From NCBI GenBank assembly GCA_965153355.1, contig OZ231126.1, forward strand, positions 27,962,001-28,026,000: a stretch of DNA of 64,000 nucleotides. The letters are read 5' to 3'. Positions within the stretch are counted from its first letter, which is position 1. Every line of letters starts with the position of its first letter. Below are positions 29,621-42,216 of the stretch, piece after piece. This stretch comes from Flaccisagitta enflata (taxonomy: Eukaryota). The position numbers and the translations under genes were made by a program. Under the pieces are notes generated by a model. The model was not told the origin of the DNA, made no database searches, and was given only the letters and a program-made list of their open reading frames with translations.

Positions 29621-29853
29621 TTATGCGCCGACGACGACGATTTCCGTTGGCGGTGTTGACGCTATAGTTGTGATTGTATCCTTGGTGGCGTGAGCTTGTG
29701 GCACCACCTTCTCGGGGAACGCGTCCTTGGCAGCGTGATTCAATTGCACCGCTACTCCGGGATAAAACAACAGCGCCGCGAAAAAGTCCTCAATCGGATT
29801 GCCGTTAATTCCGAAGGTTTTGCGGACTTTGATTCGGACGTTGGTTATCATCG
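29621..29853 (-). CDS. BCCT exon 12 (terminal; PLAC8-like motif)
   Basis: ggcag|[37 protein letters not shown]...VVGA-TAA. Confidence 0.85.
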
Positions 29854-32800
29854 CTGCCATGGGAAAACGCAGACAGGGAGGTTATCGGAACATGCTCTGT
29901 CAGGGGTACGACGATGCGGCCACGCCCCGCCGTCACACTCAATAAATGGTTAAATGCATTATTCGTTCTTTTTCGTTTTCAATGCCTGTCAGCCGGGATG
30001 CCGATTTTGTAAAGCTGCTGCGCAGCGAGAAAATTCCAACCAAGGCTGCCGCCCTTTCTTCACCAATGATATACCTCTATTTTCTTACAATACTAGTCCT
30101 TTGAAACTATTTGTATTGTATTTTCTTACAATACTAGTCTAGTTTGTATTGAAACTATTTGTATTGTATTTTCTTACAATACTAGTCCTTTGAAACTATT
30201 TGTATTGCATTAATCAGGTTTTCATATCAATTTGCTTACCACCTTAGGCGAAAATGTCTTTTGCTTCTCATCTCTCTTTCTTCTATCCTAATTAATCATC
30301 TTGATATGTTTTCCCCACTGTACGCTGCAACTGCCACACCTGGCGACTGTCCTGCCGCGTAGCATTGCCATTACCACCCTGAATCGGCACCCCGGCCTGT
30401 CAGACGCGTACATAAATTTACCCGCGTAGGCGACGTAGGAAAGCAAAGCGAGAGTCCAAACGCCATCGACGGCGAGGGCACTTATGTAAAGCACGAAAAA
30501 CATAAGGAAGGAGAAAACGAAAGGCAGGCTGCTCAGCCAAATCCGATTTGTGCCGGAGAAAGTGGCCGTTAATCTGCCAAAAGTGAAGGGCGCGGTAACG
30601 ATGTTCAAGAAGAATTCACCGGTGAGACGGGGATTCCAAGTGGCGAGTGGGTCAAGGAGACTGACGCGGAATTTCGGGTCGCGAAACAAGTTCACCTCGC
30701 GAAACTCGTGCTGTTTGTACAAGGAGTGTTAAGGATGCATGAGAAAATGAGGAATTATTAGGATGTGATTATGCATTCAAAAGCACAGGACTTTGTGTTT
30801 TTCGGGAGTCTTTACAATTTTCAAATATAAAAAGGCAGCATTGTTTCCTGTACTCTTAGTCCAGTGTCTAAAAGGAATAAAAGCACAGATCTTGGCGACT
30901 TTGGAGCAAAGCCTGAAAATTTGCATACAGGGTCAGTTTTTTGTGCTGAAGACTAGATATGGTGCACGTCTGATTTTTTAGTGTATCCCATAAAAAAACG
31001 TGTTTTTTTCGAAAAAATAACTTTGATGTTGCACTGACGCCAAACGAATGGACCGATTGTTATAAAACTTTAGGTGAAAAAAATTATGCTTTTTTTCTAC
31101 TTGCATGCAAAATTTCAGCAAAATTGGTTCAGTAGAAGCGGAGATATTGCTGTTTAAAGTTTAGGCCTATTTTCACAAAAAAGGCTGTTTTGATTTTGGG
31201 GTAAAATCTAGGTTTTTTGAGCTATAAGTCTGAAATTGTTTTCCAACATTGACTATATCCTAATTTACCTTAAAAGCAAAAAAAATTTAAAAAATTTGGT
31301 GTTTTTTTTCATTTTTTGGCTAAAAAAACAAAAAATCGAGTTTCAAAATTTAGGCGTGGTCTTCAAAAAAGGCTAGTTCAAGGAAAATATGAAAAGTAAT
31401 GGTGCCTACTTATTGAATCTGTTGCCATTAACAGTACTAACTTATTTTCAAAATTTCAAAGGGGTACACTAACCCAAATAGACAAAAAAAACATTTGAAA
31501 GTCTAAAAAAAAATACCAAAATTTAGTGTTTTTTTACCCTCTTTGATATATGAAAAAACTTAAAGTTTGATTATTAAGCTGAAATTTGGCTCAGATATGC
31601 GCCTTACATATAGGGATTTGCATACAAAATTTTAGGCAAATTGCTTGAAGCGTTTGGCCATAGCATAACCAAATATCCTAGGAAAACCAAAAATGCAAAA
31701 TTTTGGGATCTTTTTTTTCTTAACTTTGAAATGATTTTTTGTCTTTTTGGGTTGATGTACTCCTCTGAAAGTATGGGAATAAGTTAGTACACTTGATGAC
31801 AATTGATTCCGATAGTGGGTGCCAATAATTTCAATATTTTCCTAGAACTAGCCTTTTTCAAAAATCAGGCCTTAATTCTGAAACTCAATTTTTTGATTTT
31901 TTGGGCAAAAATATAAAAAAAACATGGAATTTTTTCAATTTCTTTTGTTTTTAGAGTAAATTGGGGTAAAATGAATAATCAAAACTAGTATCAGGCCTCT
32001 AGCTCAAAAAAACAAAATTTTACCCCAAATTTGAAATATAGCCCTTTTTTTAAAAAAGGCCTAGTCTTTAAAAAGCCATAGCTCCGCTTCTACTTGACCA
32101 ATTTTGCTGAAATTTTGCAAGCAAGTAGATAAAAGGCATATTTTTCTTCACCTAAAATTTTATTGTCATCGGTCAATTATTCTGGCGTCAGCGCAACTTT
32201 GAAGTGTTTTTTGTCCCCGACGAACAGTTTTCGTCGGTGACTATGTGATAGCAGTGATGCGTTGTCTGTTGTTGTTGTTCGTTTGTTCGTTTAAAACCTT
32301 CTCATATCTTTTGTACCAGACTTCAGAAGTTCATGAAACTTTACCAGTGGTATTTTTATGTCAATGGGAGCTTGTGTACCAATTTTCAGAAAAATTCATA
32401 AACTTTTACTACCCTTTGCCTATTATTTTTGTAGTAATATTTAGCTGGGACTTAGGTGGTTTACATAGGTAGAGGGTAGTAAAAGTTTATGATTTTTTTT
32501 TTAATTTGGTATACAAGCAGAGGGTAGTAAATAAACAACCCCCGCAAAATTCGAATTAAATCTGAAGTCTGGTTTAGGAGATATTAGCTTATTTATGTAG
32601 TAATATATTACACAGACTTAGGCGATTTACATAGGCAAAGGGTAGTAAAGGCATGTGAATTTTTTTTTTAATTTGGTATACTAGTAAAGGATGTCAATTC
32701 AACAGCCCCTGCAAAATTCGAATTAAATCTGAGGTCTGGTGTATGAGATATTAGCTTATTTATGTATGTAGTAATATGTTACTAGGACTTAGGCAATTTA

Positions 32801-41800: not shown

Positions 41801-42216
41801 AGACGGAGACAGAGAGAGAGACAAAGAGAAACAAAGAGAGACAAGGAGAGAGAGAAACGCGAATGACAGACGGATCGACTGGGTGGTATTTACGCGCACA
41901 CCTGCATATATAGATCGGGATGAAGATAAGCAAACACGCGCATGCAATCACCATTCCGTCCAAAAATACTCACTCTGGCAATTACGAAATTGTCATTTGC
42001 TTGTTGCGGATTCGTGACGCTGATGATTATAAACGCCCAAATTATCACAATGGAAAAAATGGTGACAATTGGGTTGAACCTGAATGGTCCGATTCGTAAC
42101 CAAGGACTCACATCCTTGATGACCTCGTCTTTTGGTTGTGACATCGACCGCTGCGGCAGGGTGGAGGACAGAGGCTTGGTCATTTTTGGAGTTATGTGGT
42201 TCTGTTTATTCGTCAT
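29621..42216 (-). CDS. BCCT-family (BetP/BetT-like) betaine/choline/carnitine transporter, 12 exons, 850 aa
   Basis: ATG 42216 to TAA 29621; exons total 2553 nt with consistent phases and GT-AG introns. BCCT motifs: [100 protein letters not shown]. Confidence 0.93.
30422..30710 (-). CDS. BCCT exon 11 (C-terminal extension, hydrophobic segments)
   Basis: aacag|HEFREVNLF...[35 protein letters not shown]|gtaaat. Confidence 0.85.
32207..34288 (+). mobile_element. DINE-1/HINE-like (non-autonomous Helentron-type) element, two head-to-tail units
   Basis: 5' tttt-gtccccgac + hairpin cgacgaa..ttcgtcgg; ~160-bp tandem repeats; 22-bp minisatellite; 3' gtcggggac within hairpin aaaattacagtc..gactgtaatttt; second head at ~33159. 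Confidence 0.65.
32862..33150. repeat. 22-bp minisatellite (GGACTTCAAGGTATGCCACCAT)
   Basis: Tandem copies; degenerate copies recur at ~33995-34145. Confidence 0.9.
34589..34765 (-). CDS. BCCT exon 10
   Basis: ttcag|[36 protein letters not shown]|gtacgc. Confidence 0.93.
34951..35114 (-). CDS. BCCT exon 9
   Basis: cgcag|[38 protein letters not shown]|gtcatt. Confidence 0.94.
35500..35900. repeat. (TC)n-(TTTC)n microsatellite
   Basis: Directly visible. Confidence 0.95.
35945..36340 (-). CDS. BCCT exon 8 (large Cys-containing loop)
   Basis: tccag|[16 protein letters not shown]...[10 protein letters not shown]|gtgaaa; 396 nt open frame, phases 1/1 fit. Confidence 0.85.
36497..37121. mobile_element. 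Palindromic MITE
   Basis: cagacggaacactattt ... aaatagtgtcccgtctg; inverted symmetry throughout. Confidence 0.8.
37208..37660. repeat. (TC)n/(TTTC)n/(TGTC)n microsatellite
   Basis: Directly visible. Confidence 0.95.
37677..37784 (-). CDS. BCCT exon 7
   Basis: ctcag|[35 protein letters not shown]|gtgagg. Confidence 0.94.
37963..38066 (-). CDS. BCCT exon 6 (TM8 aromatic box)
   Basis: cagcag|..[20 protein letters not shown]|gtactg. Confidence 0.93.
38320..38582 (-). CDS. BCCT exon 5
   Basis: accag|[28 protein letters not shown]...KQI|gtaacc. Confidence 0.93.
38825..39024 (-). CDS. BCCT exon 4
   Basis: atcag|[39 protein letters not shown]|gtataa. Confidence 0.94.
39939..40035 (-). CDS. BCCT exon 3
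   Basis: accag|[32 protein letters not shown]|gtaatt. Confidence 0.93.
40546..40824 (-). CDS. BCCT exon 2
   Basis: tttag|[36 protein letters not shown]|gtctcg. Confidence 0.93.
41003..41580. mobile_element. MITE (CAGTCATGCTTG TIR)
   Basis: ta|cagtcatgcttgaataa ... ttatccaagcatgactg. Confidence 0.6.
41974..42216 (-). CDS. BCCT exon 1 (N-tail + TM1)
   Basis: MTNKQ...[30 protein letters not shown]|gtgagt. Confidence 0.85.

What the first reader, a model, noticed from the sequence alone, without database searches (positions are those of the whole stretch)
29621..42216. Fully intronised, mainly bacterial-type BCCT osmolyte transporter in an animal genome
Seen: 12 exons and 11 GT-AG introns give an uninterrupted 850-aa protein with all BCCT signature motifs. 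It lies next to an animal-type rdgB gene and its introns carry the host's own repeats, so contamination is very unlikely. Known: BCCT (BetP/BetT/CaiT) is mainly prokaryotic and absent from vertebrates and standard insect/nematode models, although homologues are reported in some marine invertebrates and algae, so presence alone may not be new. Inference: an old, domesticated horizontal acquisition (or patchy retention) giving the animal a non-SLC6 route for betaine/choline/DMSP-like uptake.
Basis: partly seen in the sequence, partly recalled or inferred. Interest (0 to 1): 0.75.

Follow-up and report, generated by a model that had tools for sequence, protein, structure and literature searches.

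The report
Animal BCCT osmolyte transporter gene
This is an intact, intron-split animal gene for a betaine/choline-type (BCCT) osmolyte transporter, belonging to an old eukaryote-specific branch of the family already reported in corals, comb jellies and copepods, so it is not a fresh bacterial import.

Summary
On the minus strand, 42216..29621, 12 exons joined by 11 GT-AG introns give one open frame of 851 aa (850 with an alternative acceptor 3 nt downstream). Eight exon pieces hit Pfam BCCT in colinear profile order.

The protein is not bacterial-type. It lies inside a eukaryote-only clade: 67 eukaryotic rows against 87 prokaryotic rows, support 100. Two features of that clade are absent from every prokaryotic relative examined:
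- a C-terminal PLAC8-like membrane tail (exons 11-12);
- in the subclade holding this gene, a 133-aa six-cysteine loop (exon 8).

The family is annotated in ctenophores, many cnidarians, copepods, a nemertean and a chiton. It is already published (PMC7240134, PMC13547399, PMC12069450). An old eukaryotic family with patchy retention fits better than transfer from bacteria into this lineage.

The gene belongs to the host:
- an intron-2 repeat recurs in the neighbouring rdgB/PITPNM gene;
- GC3 matches (0.575 against 0.561).

All six aromatic-box residues are kept. The likely function is ion-coupled uptake of betaine, choline, TMA or DMSP-type solutes. No RNA support was obtained.

I found no paper that mentions BCCT and PLAC8 together. 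This is a new member of a known kind, of modest interest.

The parts
41974..42216 (-). Exon 1 (aa 1-81): start codon, cytoplasmic N-terminus and first transmembrane helix
   Evidence: Model. Donor GTGAGT. tblastn match of the Mnemiopsis homologue P0012, residues 37-104. In-frame stop 4 codons upstream of the ATG.
40546..40824 (-). Exon 2 (aa 82-174): BCCT core, holds the glycine motif G138-V-S-V-G142
   Evidence: Pfam BCCT E 1.1e-26, profile 32-115. 65-68% identity to the best homologues. Motif table.
39939..40035 (-). Exon 3 (aa 175-207): BCCT core, aromatic residues W184, W189, Y192
   Evidence: Pfam BCCT E 3.8e-10. Splice choice. Conservation.
38825..39024 (-). Exon 4 (aa 207-273): BCCT core
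   Evidence: Pfam BCCT E 1.8e-15, profile 152-208..
38320..38582 (-). Exon 5 (aa 274-361): BCCT core
   Evidence: Pfam BCCT E 2.3e-17, profile 216-296..
37963..38069 (-). Exon 6 (aa 361-397): Trp box W386-G-W388-W389-L-S-W392. Alternative acceptor at 38066.
   Evidence: Pfam BCCT E 1.9e-9. The two acceptors score 3533 and 3517. Motif table.
37677..37784 (-). Exon 7 (aa 397-433): BCCT core ([11 protein letters not shown])
   Evidence: Pfam BCCT E 1.5e-14..
35945..36340 (-). Exon 8 (aa 433-565): eukaryote-specific loop of 133 aa with six Cys (448, 449, 493, 502, 507, 560) and two N-x-S/T sites
   Evidence: No Pfam family. Six Cys are invariant or at least 90% conserved in 48 long-loop homologues. 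The same columns hold 23-34 aa in 24 bacterial proteins.
34951..35114 (-). Exon 9 (aa 565-619): BCCT core, motif F-V-A595-S-S-D-S-G
   Evidence: Pfam BCCT E 3e-8. Thr at position 595 in 125 of 125 eukaryotic homologues. Aligned to TmaT 405-445.
34589..34765 (-). Exon 10 (aa 620-678): last two helices of the BCCT core
   Evidence: Pfam BCCT E 5e-12, profile 432-483 of 485.
30422..30710 (-). Exon 11 (aa 679-775): first part of the C-terminal tail, with hydrophobic helices
   Evidence: Aligns with the tails of 34 full-length homologues. tblastn E 1.4e-7 with P0005. Hydropathy peak at 743-768.
29621..29853 (-). Exon 12 (aa 775-851 plus stop): PLAC8-like motif R-x3-R-x4[11 protein letters not shown]7-Y-P-x4-Q, then a low-complexity end
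   Evidence: Pfam PLAC8 E 9.2e-4, 20.5 bits, below the cut-off of 34.4. Motif found in 102 of 118 eukaryotic homologues of 700 aa or more and in 0 of 87 prokaryotic rows.
40279..40416 (.). Dispersed host repeat inside intron 2
   Evidence: blastn matches of 76-93% identity at 3549-3689, 11407-11473, 15937-16036, 43114-43159, 43251-43302 and 60584-60646.
4136..26371 (+). Neighbouring rdgB/PITPNM gene, convergent with the BCCT gene, about 3.2 kb between the last matched segments
   Evidence: 20 colinear tblastn segments with P0168, 48-98% identity. Named animal rdgB hits.

Best explanation
The locus is an intact, host-encoded gene for a eukaryote-type BCCT carrier.

Shown:
- It has a 12-helix BCCT core. 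The closest solved relatives are the Na+/trimethylamine symporter TmaT, the choline carrier BetT and the betaine carrier BetP.
- The core is interrupted by a 133-aa six-cysteine loop encoded by one exon.
- The core is followed by a membrane-embedded PLAC8-like tail encoded by the last two exons.
- The gene belongs to a eukaryote-only clade that also holds ctenophore, copepod and nemertean genes.

Inferred: it works as an ion-coupled, probably Na+-coupled, importer of small quaternary-ammonium or sulfonium osmolytes. Candidates are glycine betaine, choline, TMA/TMAO-like compounds and DMSP. It would let a marine animal take such solutes up from seawater or food. The loop would face outward, stabilised by disulfides and glycans. 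The tail would be a regulatory, assembly or trafficking module fixed to the core.

On origin, the most likely reading is an old eukaryotic family kept by some animal lineages and lost by many, not a transfer from bacteria into this animal.
For: - Gene model and Pfam hits.
- Clade membership: in IQ-TREE (76 rows) the 67 eukaryotic rows separate from 9 bacterial rows at 100. The window protein lies in a 38-row set (95) with Mnemiopsis, Bolinopsis, Tigriopus, Lepeophtheirus and Tubulanus.
- FastTree with 87 prokaryotic rows, 78 of them from the 80 best loci of a scan of 185,579 prokaryote genomes, gives the same result: eukaryotes on one side at 100, the window in an all-eukaryote set of 38 at 96.
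- Eukaryote-only features: the tail motif occurs in 102 of 118 eukaryotic proteins and in 0 of 87 prokaryotic rows. No prokaryotic HSP passes residue 711 of 851. In all 80 prokaryotic loci the match ends by query residue 715 of 872.
- Named animal members.
- Substrate site: the TmaT aromatic boxes are W146, W151, Y154, W325, W326, W329 (PMC11708041, abstract and passages). They correspond to W184, W189, Y192, W388, W389, W392, all kept. This mapping is my reading.
- Constraint: 118 of 124 columns that are at least 95% conserved are kept.
- Fold: the AlphaFold2 model of homologue P0080 (49% identical) has pLDDT 86.3 and pTM 0.82, with loop and tail above 90. Foldseek's top hit is TmaT, TM-score 0.91 on the target.
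- Host origin.
- Function in relatives: a picoalgal member complements a BCCT-deficient E. coli for DMSP uptake (PMC13547399, abstract). Copepod BCCT transcripts fall at low salinity (PMC12069450, passages).
Against: - No transcript evidence. A polyA RNA run linked by species label gave 0 reads on exons 8-12 in the 6% of the run that was read. Three marine metatranscriptomes covered only intron-10 repeats.
- The protein sits on a long branch: 1.04 against a median of 0.22.
- It departs at 6 of 124 highly conserved columns, against a median of 1. One departure is Ala for a Thr that is invariant in 125 of 125 eukaryotic homologues. Another is Ser at the centre of G-x-G-x-G, found in 23 of 125.
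- Its position within the 38-row clade is unresolved.
- No member of the animal subclade has a measured substrate. TmaT itself binds TMA but not betaine or choline (PMC11708041, Table 1 passage), so the substrate cannot be read from the nearest structure.
- Many clade members are unnamed metatranscriptome sequences that could be protists, so vertical descent within animals is not proven.
Confidence: 0.75

Rival explanations
1. The patchy animal distribution comes from one or more ancient transfers between eukaryotes, for example from algae or other protists into animal lineages, rather than from descent plus loss.
For: - Animal sequences fall into at least two clades: cnidarians plus a chiton, and ctenophores plus copepods, a nemertean and the window.
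- A protist transcript (P0022, MMETSP) is sister to the cnidarian clade at support 93.
- PMC12069450 calls the origin in copepods 'elusive'.
- A chiton groups with cnidarians rather than with the nemertean.
Against: - The long-loop, six-Cys form is shared by ctenophores, copepods, a nemertean and the window. Two old animal paralogues with differential loss would explain that just as well.
- All introns, GC3 and repeats look native, so any transfer is old.
- Many rows of the tree are unnamed, so no donor can be named.
Confidence: 0.17
2. The gene is a relic that is silent or decaying: the reading frame is still open but no longer under selection for transport.
For: - No RNA reads on exons 8-12.
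- Long branch.
- Loss of a Thr that is invariant in all 125 eukaryotic homologues and is T or S in all 24 bacterial ones.
- Six departures at highly conserved columns, against a median of 1.
Against: - 851 codons over 12 exons carry no stop or frameshift, and all 11 introns have GT-AG ends.
- 118 of 124 conserved columns are kept, as are all six aromatic-box residues and all six loop cysteines.
- A 79-aa public ORF is 96% identical to exon 12, with only a few amino-acid changes.
- The RNA run was not shown to be the same species or to cover this locus's neighbours.
Confidence: 0.06
3. Recent horizontal transfer of a bacterial BCCT gene into this animal lineage, or bacterial contamination or misassembly.
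For: The core is about 38% identical to bacterial proteins.
Against: - Eukaryotic rows form one side of a branch at 100 in both trees.
- The tail and the long loop are absent from all 87 prokaryotic rows.
- There are 11 spliceosomal-type introns.
- A host repeat in intron 2 is shared with the rdgB gene.
- GC3 is 0.575 against 0.561.
Confidence: 0.02

Closest known systems
Eukaryotic BCCT carriers of cnidarians, ctenophores and protists (Ngugi et al. 2020, PMC7240134), also called PaDT (Simo et al. 2026, PMC13547399)
   Same: Same family and same eukaryote-only clade. Same length class and Pfam pair PF02028 + PF04749 in many members. The G-x-G-x-G region and Trp box are kept, as those papers describe. 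PMC13547399 names a clade of 'multicellular organisms and some dinoflagellates'.
   Different: The window protein is only 42-49% identical to any member found and sits on a long branch. It comes from an animal whose rdgB gene falls outside the sampled deuterostomes, spiralians and panarthropods. Neither paper's main text mentions the PLAC8-like tail or a C-terminal domain. Only the picoalgal member has a measured substrate (DMSP).
TmaT, the Na+/trimethylamine symporter of a marine bacterium (PDB 8zw8, 8zxk; PMC11708041)
   Same: Closest solved structure by sequence profile (E 9e-144) and by fold (TM-score 0.91 on the target, 31% identity). All six aromatic-box residues are conserved.
   Different: TmaT is 539 aa and has no long loop and no tail. 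The profile match has three stretches that skip profile positions 437-529 and stop at 647 of 805. TmaT Met105 corresponds to Val139 here. TmaT is TMA-specific in binding assays.
BetP (Na+/glycine betaine symporter, Corynebacterium glutamicum), BetT (choline) and CaiT (carnitine antiporter)
   Same: BCCT fold and motifs. Profile E-values are 1e-106 (BetP), 2e-107 and 4e-122 (choline carriers) and 1e-40 (CaiT).
   Different: BetP regulates transport through a soluble C-terminal helix (recalled). Here the C-terminus is a multi-helix membrane module. The centre of G-x-G-x-G is Ser. The motif F-V-T-S-S-D-S-G reads F-V-A-S-S-D-S-G.
PLAC8 family (Pfam PF04749; plant PCR/FW2.2 proteins, animal PLAC8/cornifelin)
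   Same: The tails of some homologues pass Pfam's cut-off over almost the whole profile (P0129 38.6 bits, P0146 37.2, P0080 34.7). The window's exon 12 matches profile positions 62-97.
   Different: The window's own match is below the cut-off (20.5 against 34.4 bits). The cysteine-rich signature recalled for the family is absent: the aligned stretch reads N-I-V-T-A-P-F-T. Here the module is fused behind a transporter and does not stand alone.

Membership tests
BCCT family (Pfam PF02028; TC 2.A.15) | Significant match to the family profile over its whole length | tested here: met
   Eight exon pieces match profile positions 32-483 of 485 in order, each above the 27-bit cut-off at 33-93.8 bits.
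BCCT family (Pfam PF02028; TC 2.A.15) | Tryptophan-rich helix (W-T-x-x-Y-W-x-W-W-x-x-W-x-P-F-V-G) and helix-4 aromatics that form the substrate box | tested here: met
   W381[16 protein letters not shown]397 is present, as are W184, W189 and Y192. The residues are named from TmaT in PMC11708041. The mapping goes through the alignment.
BCCT family (Pfam PF02028; TC 2.A.15) | Glycine motif G-x-G-x-G in the unwound helix | tested here: inconclusive
   It reads G-V-S-V-G. The centre is G in 91, S in 23 and A in 11 of 125 eukaryotic homologues, and G in 24 of 24 bacterial ones. PMC7240134 reports G-x-A-x-G in some algal members.
BCCT family (Pfam PF02028; TC 2.A.15) | Twelve-helix LeuT-type fold, trimer | tested here: met
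   The fold was shown for homologue P0080, not for the window protein itself: pLDDT 86.3, with Foldseek hits to TmaT, BetT, BetP and CaiT at probability 1.00. The oligomeric state was not tested.
BCCT family (Pfam PF02028; TC 2.A.15) | Transport of betaine, choline, carnitine or related solutes | not testable with these tools
   Needs uptake assays.
Eukaryote-type BCCT clade (PaDT and coral BCCT) | Groups with eukaryotic and not with prokaryotic BCCTs in a tree | tested here: met
   Support 100.
Eukaryote-type BCCT clade (PaDT and coral BCCT) | C-terminal tail with motif R-x3-R...G-x3-E-D...Y-P-x4-Q behind helix 12 (a feature defined here) | tested here: met
   The window has it at residue 781. 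It occurs in 102 of 118 eukaryotic proteins of 700 aa or more and in 0 of 87 prokaryotic rows.
PLAC8 family (Pfam PF04749) | Score above Pfam's gathering cut-off (34.4 bits) | tested here: not met
   Exon 12 scores 20.5 bits, E 9.2e-4, and exon 11 gives no hit. The spliced tail could not be submitted. Three of 12 homologues pass, 7 are below the cut-off and 2 have no hit.
PLAC8 family (Pfam PF04749) | Cysteine-rich signature near the start of the domain (CCxxxxCPC or CLxxxxCPC; recalled, not from a call) | tested here: not met
   The aligned stretch has no Cys in the window or in the homologues shown, for example N-I-F-x-A-P-x-T.

The most novel reading that the evidence does not exclude
Every eukaryotic BCCT carrier of this clade is a fixed fusion of a bacterial-type transporter core with a cysteine-less PLAC8-like membrane module. 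A ctenophore-bilaterian subclade adds a six-cysteine ectodomain carried on a single exon. I found these features described in no paper. They would mark one ancient origin of the eukaryotic family and may replace the soluble osmosensing C-terminus of bacterial BetP with a membrane-embedded regulator. The window's copy comes from an animal lineage outside those sampled. It has lost the invariant Thr of the F-V-T-S-S-D-S-G motif, which I recall as a ligand of the second Na+ site in BetP, and may therefore have altered ion coupling.
Probability: 0.3. Interest if true: 0.5.

Novelty: new member of a known kind. Interest (0 to 1): 0.3.

Why it matters
Marine invertebrates hold large pools of betaine, TMAO and related solutes, and how they acquire them is only partly known. 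This locus is a fully resolved genomic example (12 exons, native repeats, an animal neighbour) showing that the BCCT route is encoded by the animal itself and not by its microbes.

With the nemertean, chiton and copepod members found here, it narrows the gap that made the copepod genes' origin 'elusive' (PMC12069450). It also argues against the idea that animal BCCTs are tied to algal symbiosis (PMC7240134).

The conserved tail and loop give concrete targets for asking how the eukaryotic carriers are regulated. One lead: a coral cell-line paper lists, under the Nematostella epidermis marker 'plac8', an Acropora gene annotated as a glycine betaine transporter (PMC8270879, Table passage). This hints that such carriers sit in the outer epithelium.

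Tried and rejected
- The part 29500-37150 was then laid. There were 0 reads on exons 8-12. One read from the polyA run was laid, with only 6% of that run read. Metatranscriptome contigs lay only on intron-10 repeats (30780-34619). The cap then barred laying exons 1-7. This shows neither expression nor silence.
- Whole-genome search: no genome is held for this window. Paralogue counts and intron comparison within the genome were therefore impossible.
- Intron positions in other animals: no tool gave animal genomic loci, so this was not done.
- Earlier scan notes: three look-ups returned nothing.
- Taxon of the window. The best named rdgB hits are 56-65% identical across many phyla. In a 28-row tree the window, with an unnamed 82%-identical transcript, sits on a long stem outside the sampled groups. 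I did not assign a phylum.
- Loop fold. The window's exon-8 peptide folded alone gave pLDDT 66.6. A search of 48,161 chains gave a best Z of 3.7 and none at 5 or above. No conclusion follows from this.
- Stand-alone relatives of the tail. phmmer with exon 12 against 1.84 billion representatives gave 39 hits. Of 28 scanned, 23 carry a PLAC8-like match. Of the 10 sequences I read, 8 are fragments of BCCT-type tails and 2 match only the exon-12 part. No stand-alone form was identified.
- Exon 9 alone against the PDB found only TmaT, so I made no residue-by-residue check against BetP.
- My first impression that the ORF at 51128-52480 is reverse-transcriptase-like got no Pfam support.

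
Full report
**1. Observation**

The region was read as stop-free pieces on both strands. Twelve minus-strand pieces were scanned against Pfam. Eight hit PF02028 (BCCT), with E-values from 1.1e-26 to 3e-8. The matched profile positions run in order along the strand: 32-115, 120-159, 152-208, 216-296, 291-323, 319-356, 382-435 and 432-483 of 485. Chance open frames would not give that pattern. The last piece gave a weak PLAC8 match (E 9.2e-4, 20.5 bits, cut-off 34.4).

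Full-length homologues were laid on the window by tblastn. Every GT/AG pair that keeps the frame was then scored against nine homologues. The resulting model has these properties:
- 12 exons and 11 introns of 178 to 3,878 bp, all GT..AG;
- a 2,556-nt CDS giving 851 aa with no internal stop;
- ATG at 42216 and the stop codon at 29623-29621.

An acceptor 3 nt downstream of the chosen one for exon 6 scores almost the same and gives 850 aa. An in-frame stop lies four codons upstream of the ATG. A further 5' coding exon cannot be excluded.

**2. Host origin**

The + strand from 4136 to 26371 carries an rdgB/PITPNM gene, shown by 20 colinear tblastn segments with an unnamed 1,301-aa transcript. A search with one of its exon pairs found 'protein retinal degeneration B' from molluscs, a brachiopod, nemerteans, arthropods, echinoderms, a hemichordate and vertebrates at 56-65% identity.

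Three lines tie the BCCT gene to the same genome:
- A 138-bp repeat in BCCT intron 2 recurs at six other places in the window at 76-93% identity, three of them in or beside the rdgB gene.
- GC3 is 0.575 for the BCCT CDS and 0.561 for the rdgB segments. The BCCT introns are 36.6% GC against 48.6% for its CDS.
- The gene has spliceosomal-type introns throughout.

Contamination or a chimeric assembly is therefore very unlikely.

I could not name the phylum. In a 28-row rdgB tree the window, with its 82%-identical unnamed partner, sits on a long stem outside the sampled deuterostomes, spiralians and panarthropods.

**3. What the protein is**

A search with exon 2 found 76 relatives. The best, at 59-68% identity on that exon, are 800-880-aa proteins. 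Many carry the Pfam pair PF02028 + PF04749. They come from ctenophores, copepods, cnidarians, a brown alga, an MMETSP protist and many marine metatranscriptomes. Bacterial BCCTs follow at 35-46%.

A profile search scored 8,000 candidates, and 5,930 had E of 1e-10 or less. The 120 best listed added Nematostella, Hydra, Clytia, Hydractinia, Acropora, Porites, Pocillopora and Dendronephthya. It also added the nemertean Tubulanus polymorphus and the chiton Liolophura sinensis. By my hand count about 65 of those 120 carry PF04749.

Over its full length the window protein is 42-49% identical to its best relatives, so no close orthologue was found. The nearest prokaryotes are about 38% identical. They match in two blocks, residues 23-444 and 568-680, which skip the loop and stop before the tail.

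**4. Trees**

- An IQ-TREE run (76 rows, 718 columns, LG+C20 PMSF, quick search, SH-aLRT support only) separates 67 eukaryotic rows from 9 bacterial rows at 100.
- It places the window in a 38-row set (95) with all ctenophore rows, the three copepod rows, Tubulanus and unnamed marine sequences. Its place inside that set is unresolved, and its branch is long (1.04 against a median of 0.22).
- Cnidarians plus the chiton form a second clade, with an MMETSP protist as sister (93).
- To guard against a thin outgroup I scanned one genome of each of 185,579 prokaryote species (602 confirmed loci, 80 kept). I added 78 of them, dropping two whose open frame was under 430 aa.
- FastTree on the resulting 154 rows again puts all 67 eukaryotic rows on one side (100), with the window in an all-eukaryote set of 38 (96).
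- FastTree and quick searches overstate support on long branches, so I rely only on the deep split.

**5. Features absent from prokaryotes**

The tail (residues 679-851, exons 11-12):
- It aligns with the tails of all 34 full-length homologues shown.
- A motif pattern for it is found in 102 of 118 eukaryotic proteins of 700 aa or more, and in 0 of 87 prokaryotic rows.
- In all 80 prokaryotic loci the match ends by query residue 715 of 872.
- Pfam calls the tail PLAC8 above its cut-off in 3 of 12 homologues tested, below it in 7, and not at all in 2.
- The window's own tail is below the cut-off and lacks the cysteine signature I recall for PLAC8. I therefore call it PLAC8-like and not a member.

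The loop (residues 433-565):
- It is exactly exon 8.
- It is 133 aa with six Cys and two N-x-S/T sites.
- The same columns hold 102-119 aa with six Cys in Tubulanus, Tigriopus, Lepeophtheirus and Mnemiopsis. They hold 43-49 aa with two Cys in Nematostella, Hydra, the chiton and the brown alga, and 23-34 aa in 24 bacterial proteins.
- In 48 long-loop homologues three of the Cys are invariant and three are at least 90% conserved.

Domain borders coincide with exon borders. Intron 10, the longest, separates the core from the tail.

**6. Structure**

AlphaFold2 on homologue P0080 (49% identical to the window protein), with a 60-row alignment, gave mean pLDDT 86.3 and pTM 0.82. Ten-residue block means are 94-97 across the loop and 92-98 across four to five tail helices. 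Both therefore look like ordered parts of one body. I had no access to coordinates, so the contacts are not described.

Foldseek matched the core to TmaT (TM-score 0.91 on the target), BetT, BetP and CaiT. By sequence profile the order is TmaT (9e-144), choline carriers (4e-122, 2e-107), BetP (4e-106), DddT (2e-68) and CaiT (1e-40). The loop and the tail are unmatched.

**7. How it probably works**

The TmaT paper names two aromatic boxes: W146/W151/Y154/W326 and W325/W326/W329. It states that W146, Y154, W326 and W329 are conserved only in carriers of quaternary-ammonium compounds (PMC11708041, abstract and passages). Reading one search's alignment together's motif table, these are W184, W189, Y192, W388, W389 and W392 in the window protein. 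All six are kept.

I infer a carrier for betaine, choline, TMA-like or DMSP-like solutes. Support from relatives:
- Caligus and Lepeophtheirus BCCT transcripts fall at low salinity (PMC12069450, passages).

Na+ coupling is inferred from TmaT and BetP only.

Two points argue for caution:
- The centre of G-x-G-x-G is Ser, as in 23 of 125 eukaryotic homologues.
- F-V-T-S-S-D-S-G reads F-V-A-S-S-D-S-G. The Thr is present in 125 of 125 eukaryotic homologues, and the position is T or S in all 24 bacterial ones. I recall this Thr as a ligand of the second Na+ site in BetP, but no call checked that.

Overall the protein keeps 118 of 124 columns that are at least 95% conserved. The family median is 1 departure and the window has 6. 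It is divergent but not decayed.

**8. Against my reading**

- No RNA evidence was obtained. There were zero reads on exons 8-12, and it was not shown that the polyA run is from this species.
- The marine metatranscriptome contigs lie only on intron-10 repeats.
- The position in the tree is unresolved, and many neighbours are unnamed.
- Animal sequences are not one clade, so transfers between eukaryotes remain possible.

**9. Comparison with what is known**

- PMC7240134 (passages and section 9 read) reported BCCT homologues in cnidarians, a ctenophore and several protist groups. It found them distant from prokaryotic carriers and dated their acquisition before the diversification of metazoans.
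- PMC13547399 (abstract and section 10 read) found 361 eukaryotic BCCT-like proteins forming a group distinct from prokaryotes, with one clade of 'multicellular organisms and some dinoflagellates'.
- PMC12069450 (passages read) noted copepod members.

So presence in an animal is not new, and NCBI already names such genes in many animals. I did not find the tail and loop in print:
- No paper in the library holds both 'BCCT' and 'PLAC8'.
- The only paper with 'PLAC8' and 'betaine transporter' is a coral cell-line study. Its marker table pairs the Nematostella epidermis marker 'plac8' with an Acropora gene annotated as a glycine betaine transporter.
- The main texts of the two key papers mention neither PLAC8 nor a C-terminal domain. 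Their supplements were not read.

**10. Verdict**

The locus is a new and rather divergent member of a known eukaryotic BCCT clade in a host genome. The value added here is a clean gene structure, a wider animal distribution (nemertean, chiton, copepods and this lineage), and the point that the whole clade shares a PLAC8-like tail that no prokaryotic relative has.

Noticed in passing
window 890-3249: A very regular 16-bp minisatellite (147.6 copies, 97% matches, unit CTGTCTATCCAACTGT) lies just upstream of the first matched rdgB exon. It reads as long open frames in several phases.
   Followed up: no
window 32423-33887 (BCCT intron 10): Intron 10 holds a 22-bp tandem array (32863-33149) flanked by two arrays of about 161-167 bp. 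Contigs of three marine metatranscriptomes match these repeats at 95-100% identity, with summed depths up to 19,120 in one bin, while the exons have none. The repeat family, or its bearer, is abundant in those plankton samples.
   Followed up: partly
window 29624-29851 (exon 12): A 79-aa public ORF (P0285) is 96% identical to the exon-12 peptide, and another (P0286) is 66% identical. A very close relative of this gene therefore exists in public data and could serve for a dN/dS test.
   Followed up: partly
window 4136-26371 (+): The rdgB/PITPNM gene spans at least 20 exons. Its protein, with an 82%-identical unnamed transcript, sits on a long stem outside the sampled deuterostomes, spiralians and panarthropods in a 28-row tree. 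The animal belongs to a fast-evolving or poorly sampled lineage.
   Followed up: partly
window 51128-52480 (-) and 48691-49806 (+): Two long open frames (451 aa and 372 aa) have no Pfam match at E of 0.01 or less. The first reminded me of retroelement-associated ORFs, but nothing supports that.
   Followed up: partly
window 35500-35898 and 37209-37659 (BCCT introns 8 and 7): Long (TC)n and (TCTT)n microsatellites lie inside BCCT introns. Similar arrays occur in rdgB introns (16989-17344, 19125-19469) and downstream (55718-56420, 57855-58054).
   Followed up: no
homologues P0129, P0146 and others: Animal BCCTs come in two forms. A short-loop form (43-49 aa, two Cys) is found in cnidarians and a chiton. 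A long-loop form (102-133 aa, six Cys) is found in ctenophores, copepods, a nemertean and this window. The two forms match the two clades of the tree.
   Followed up: partly
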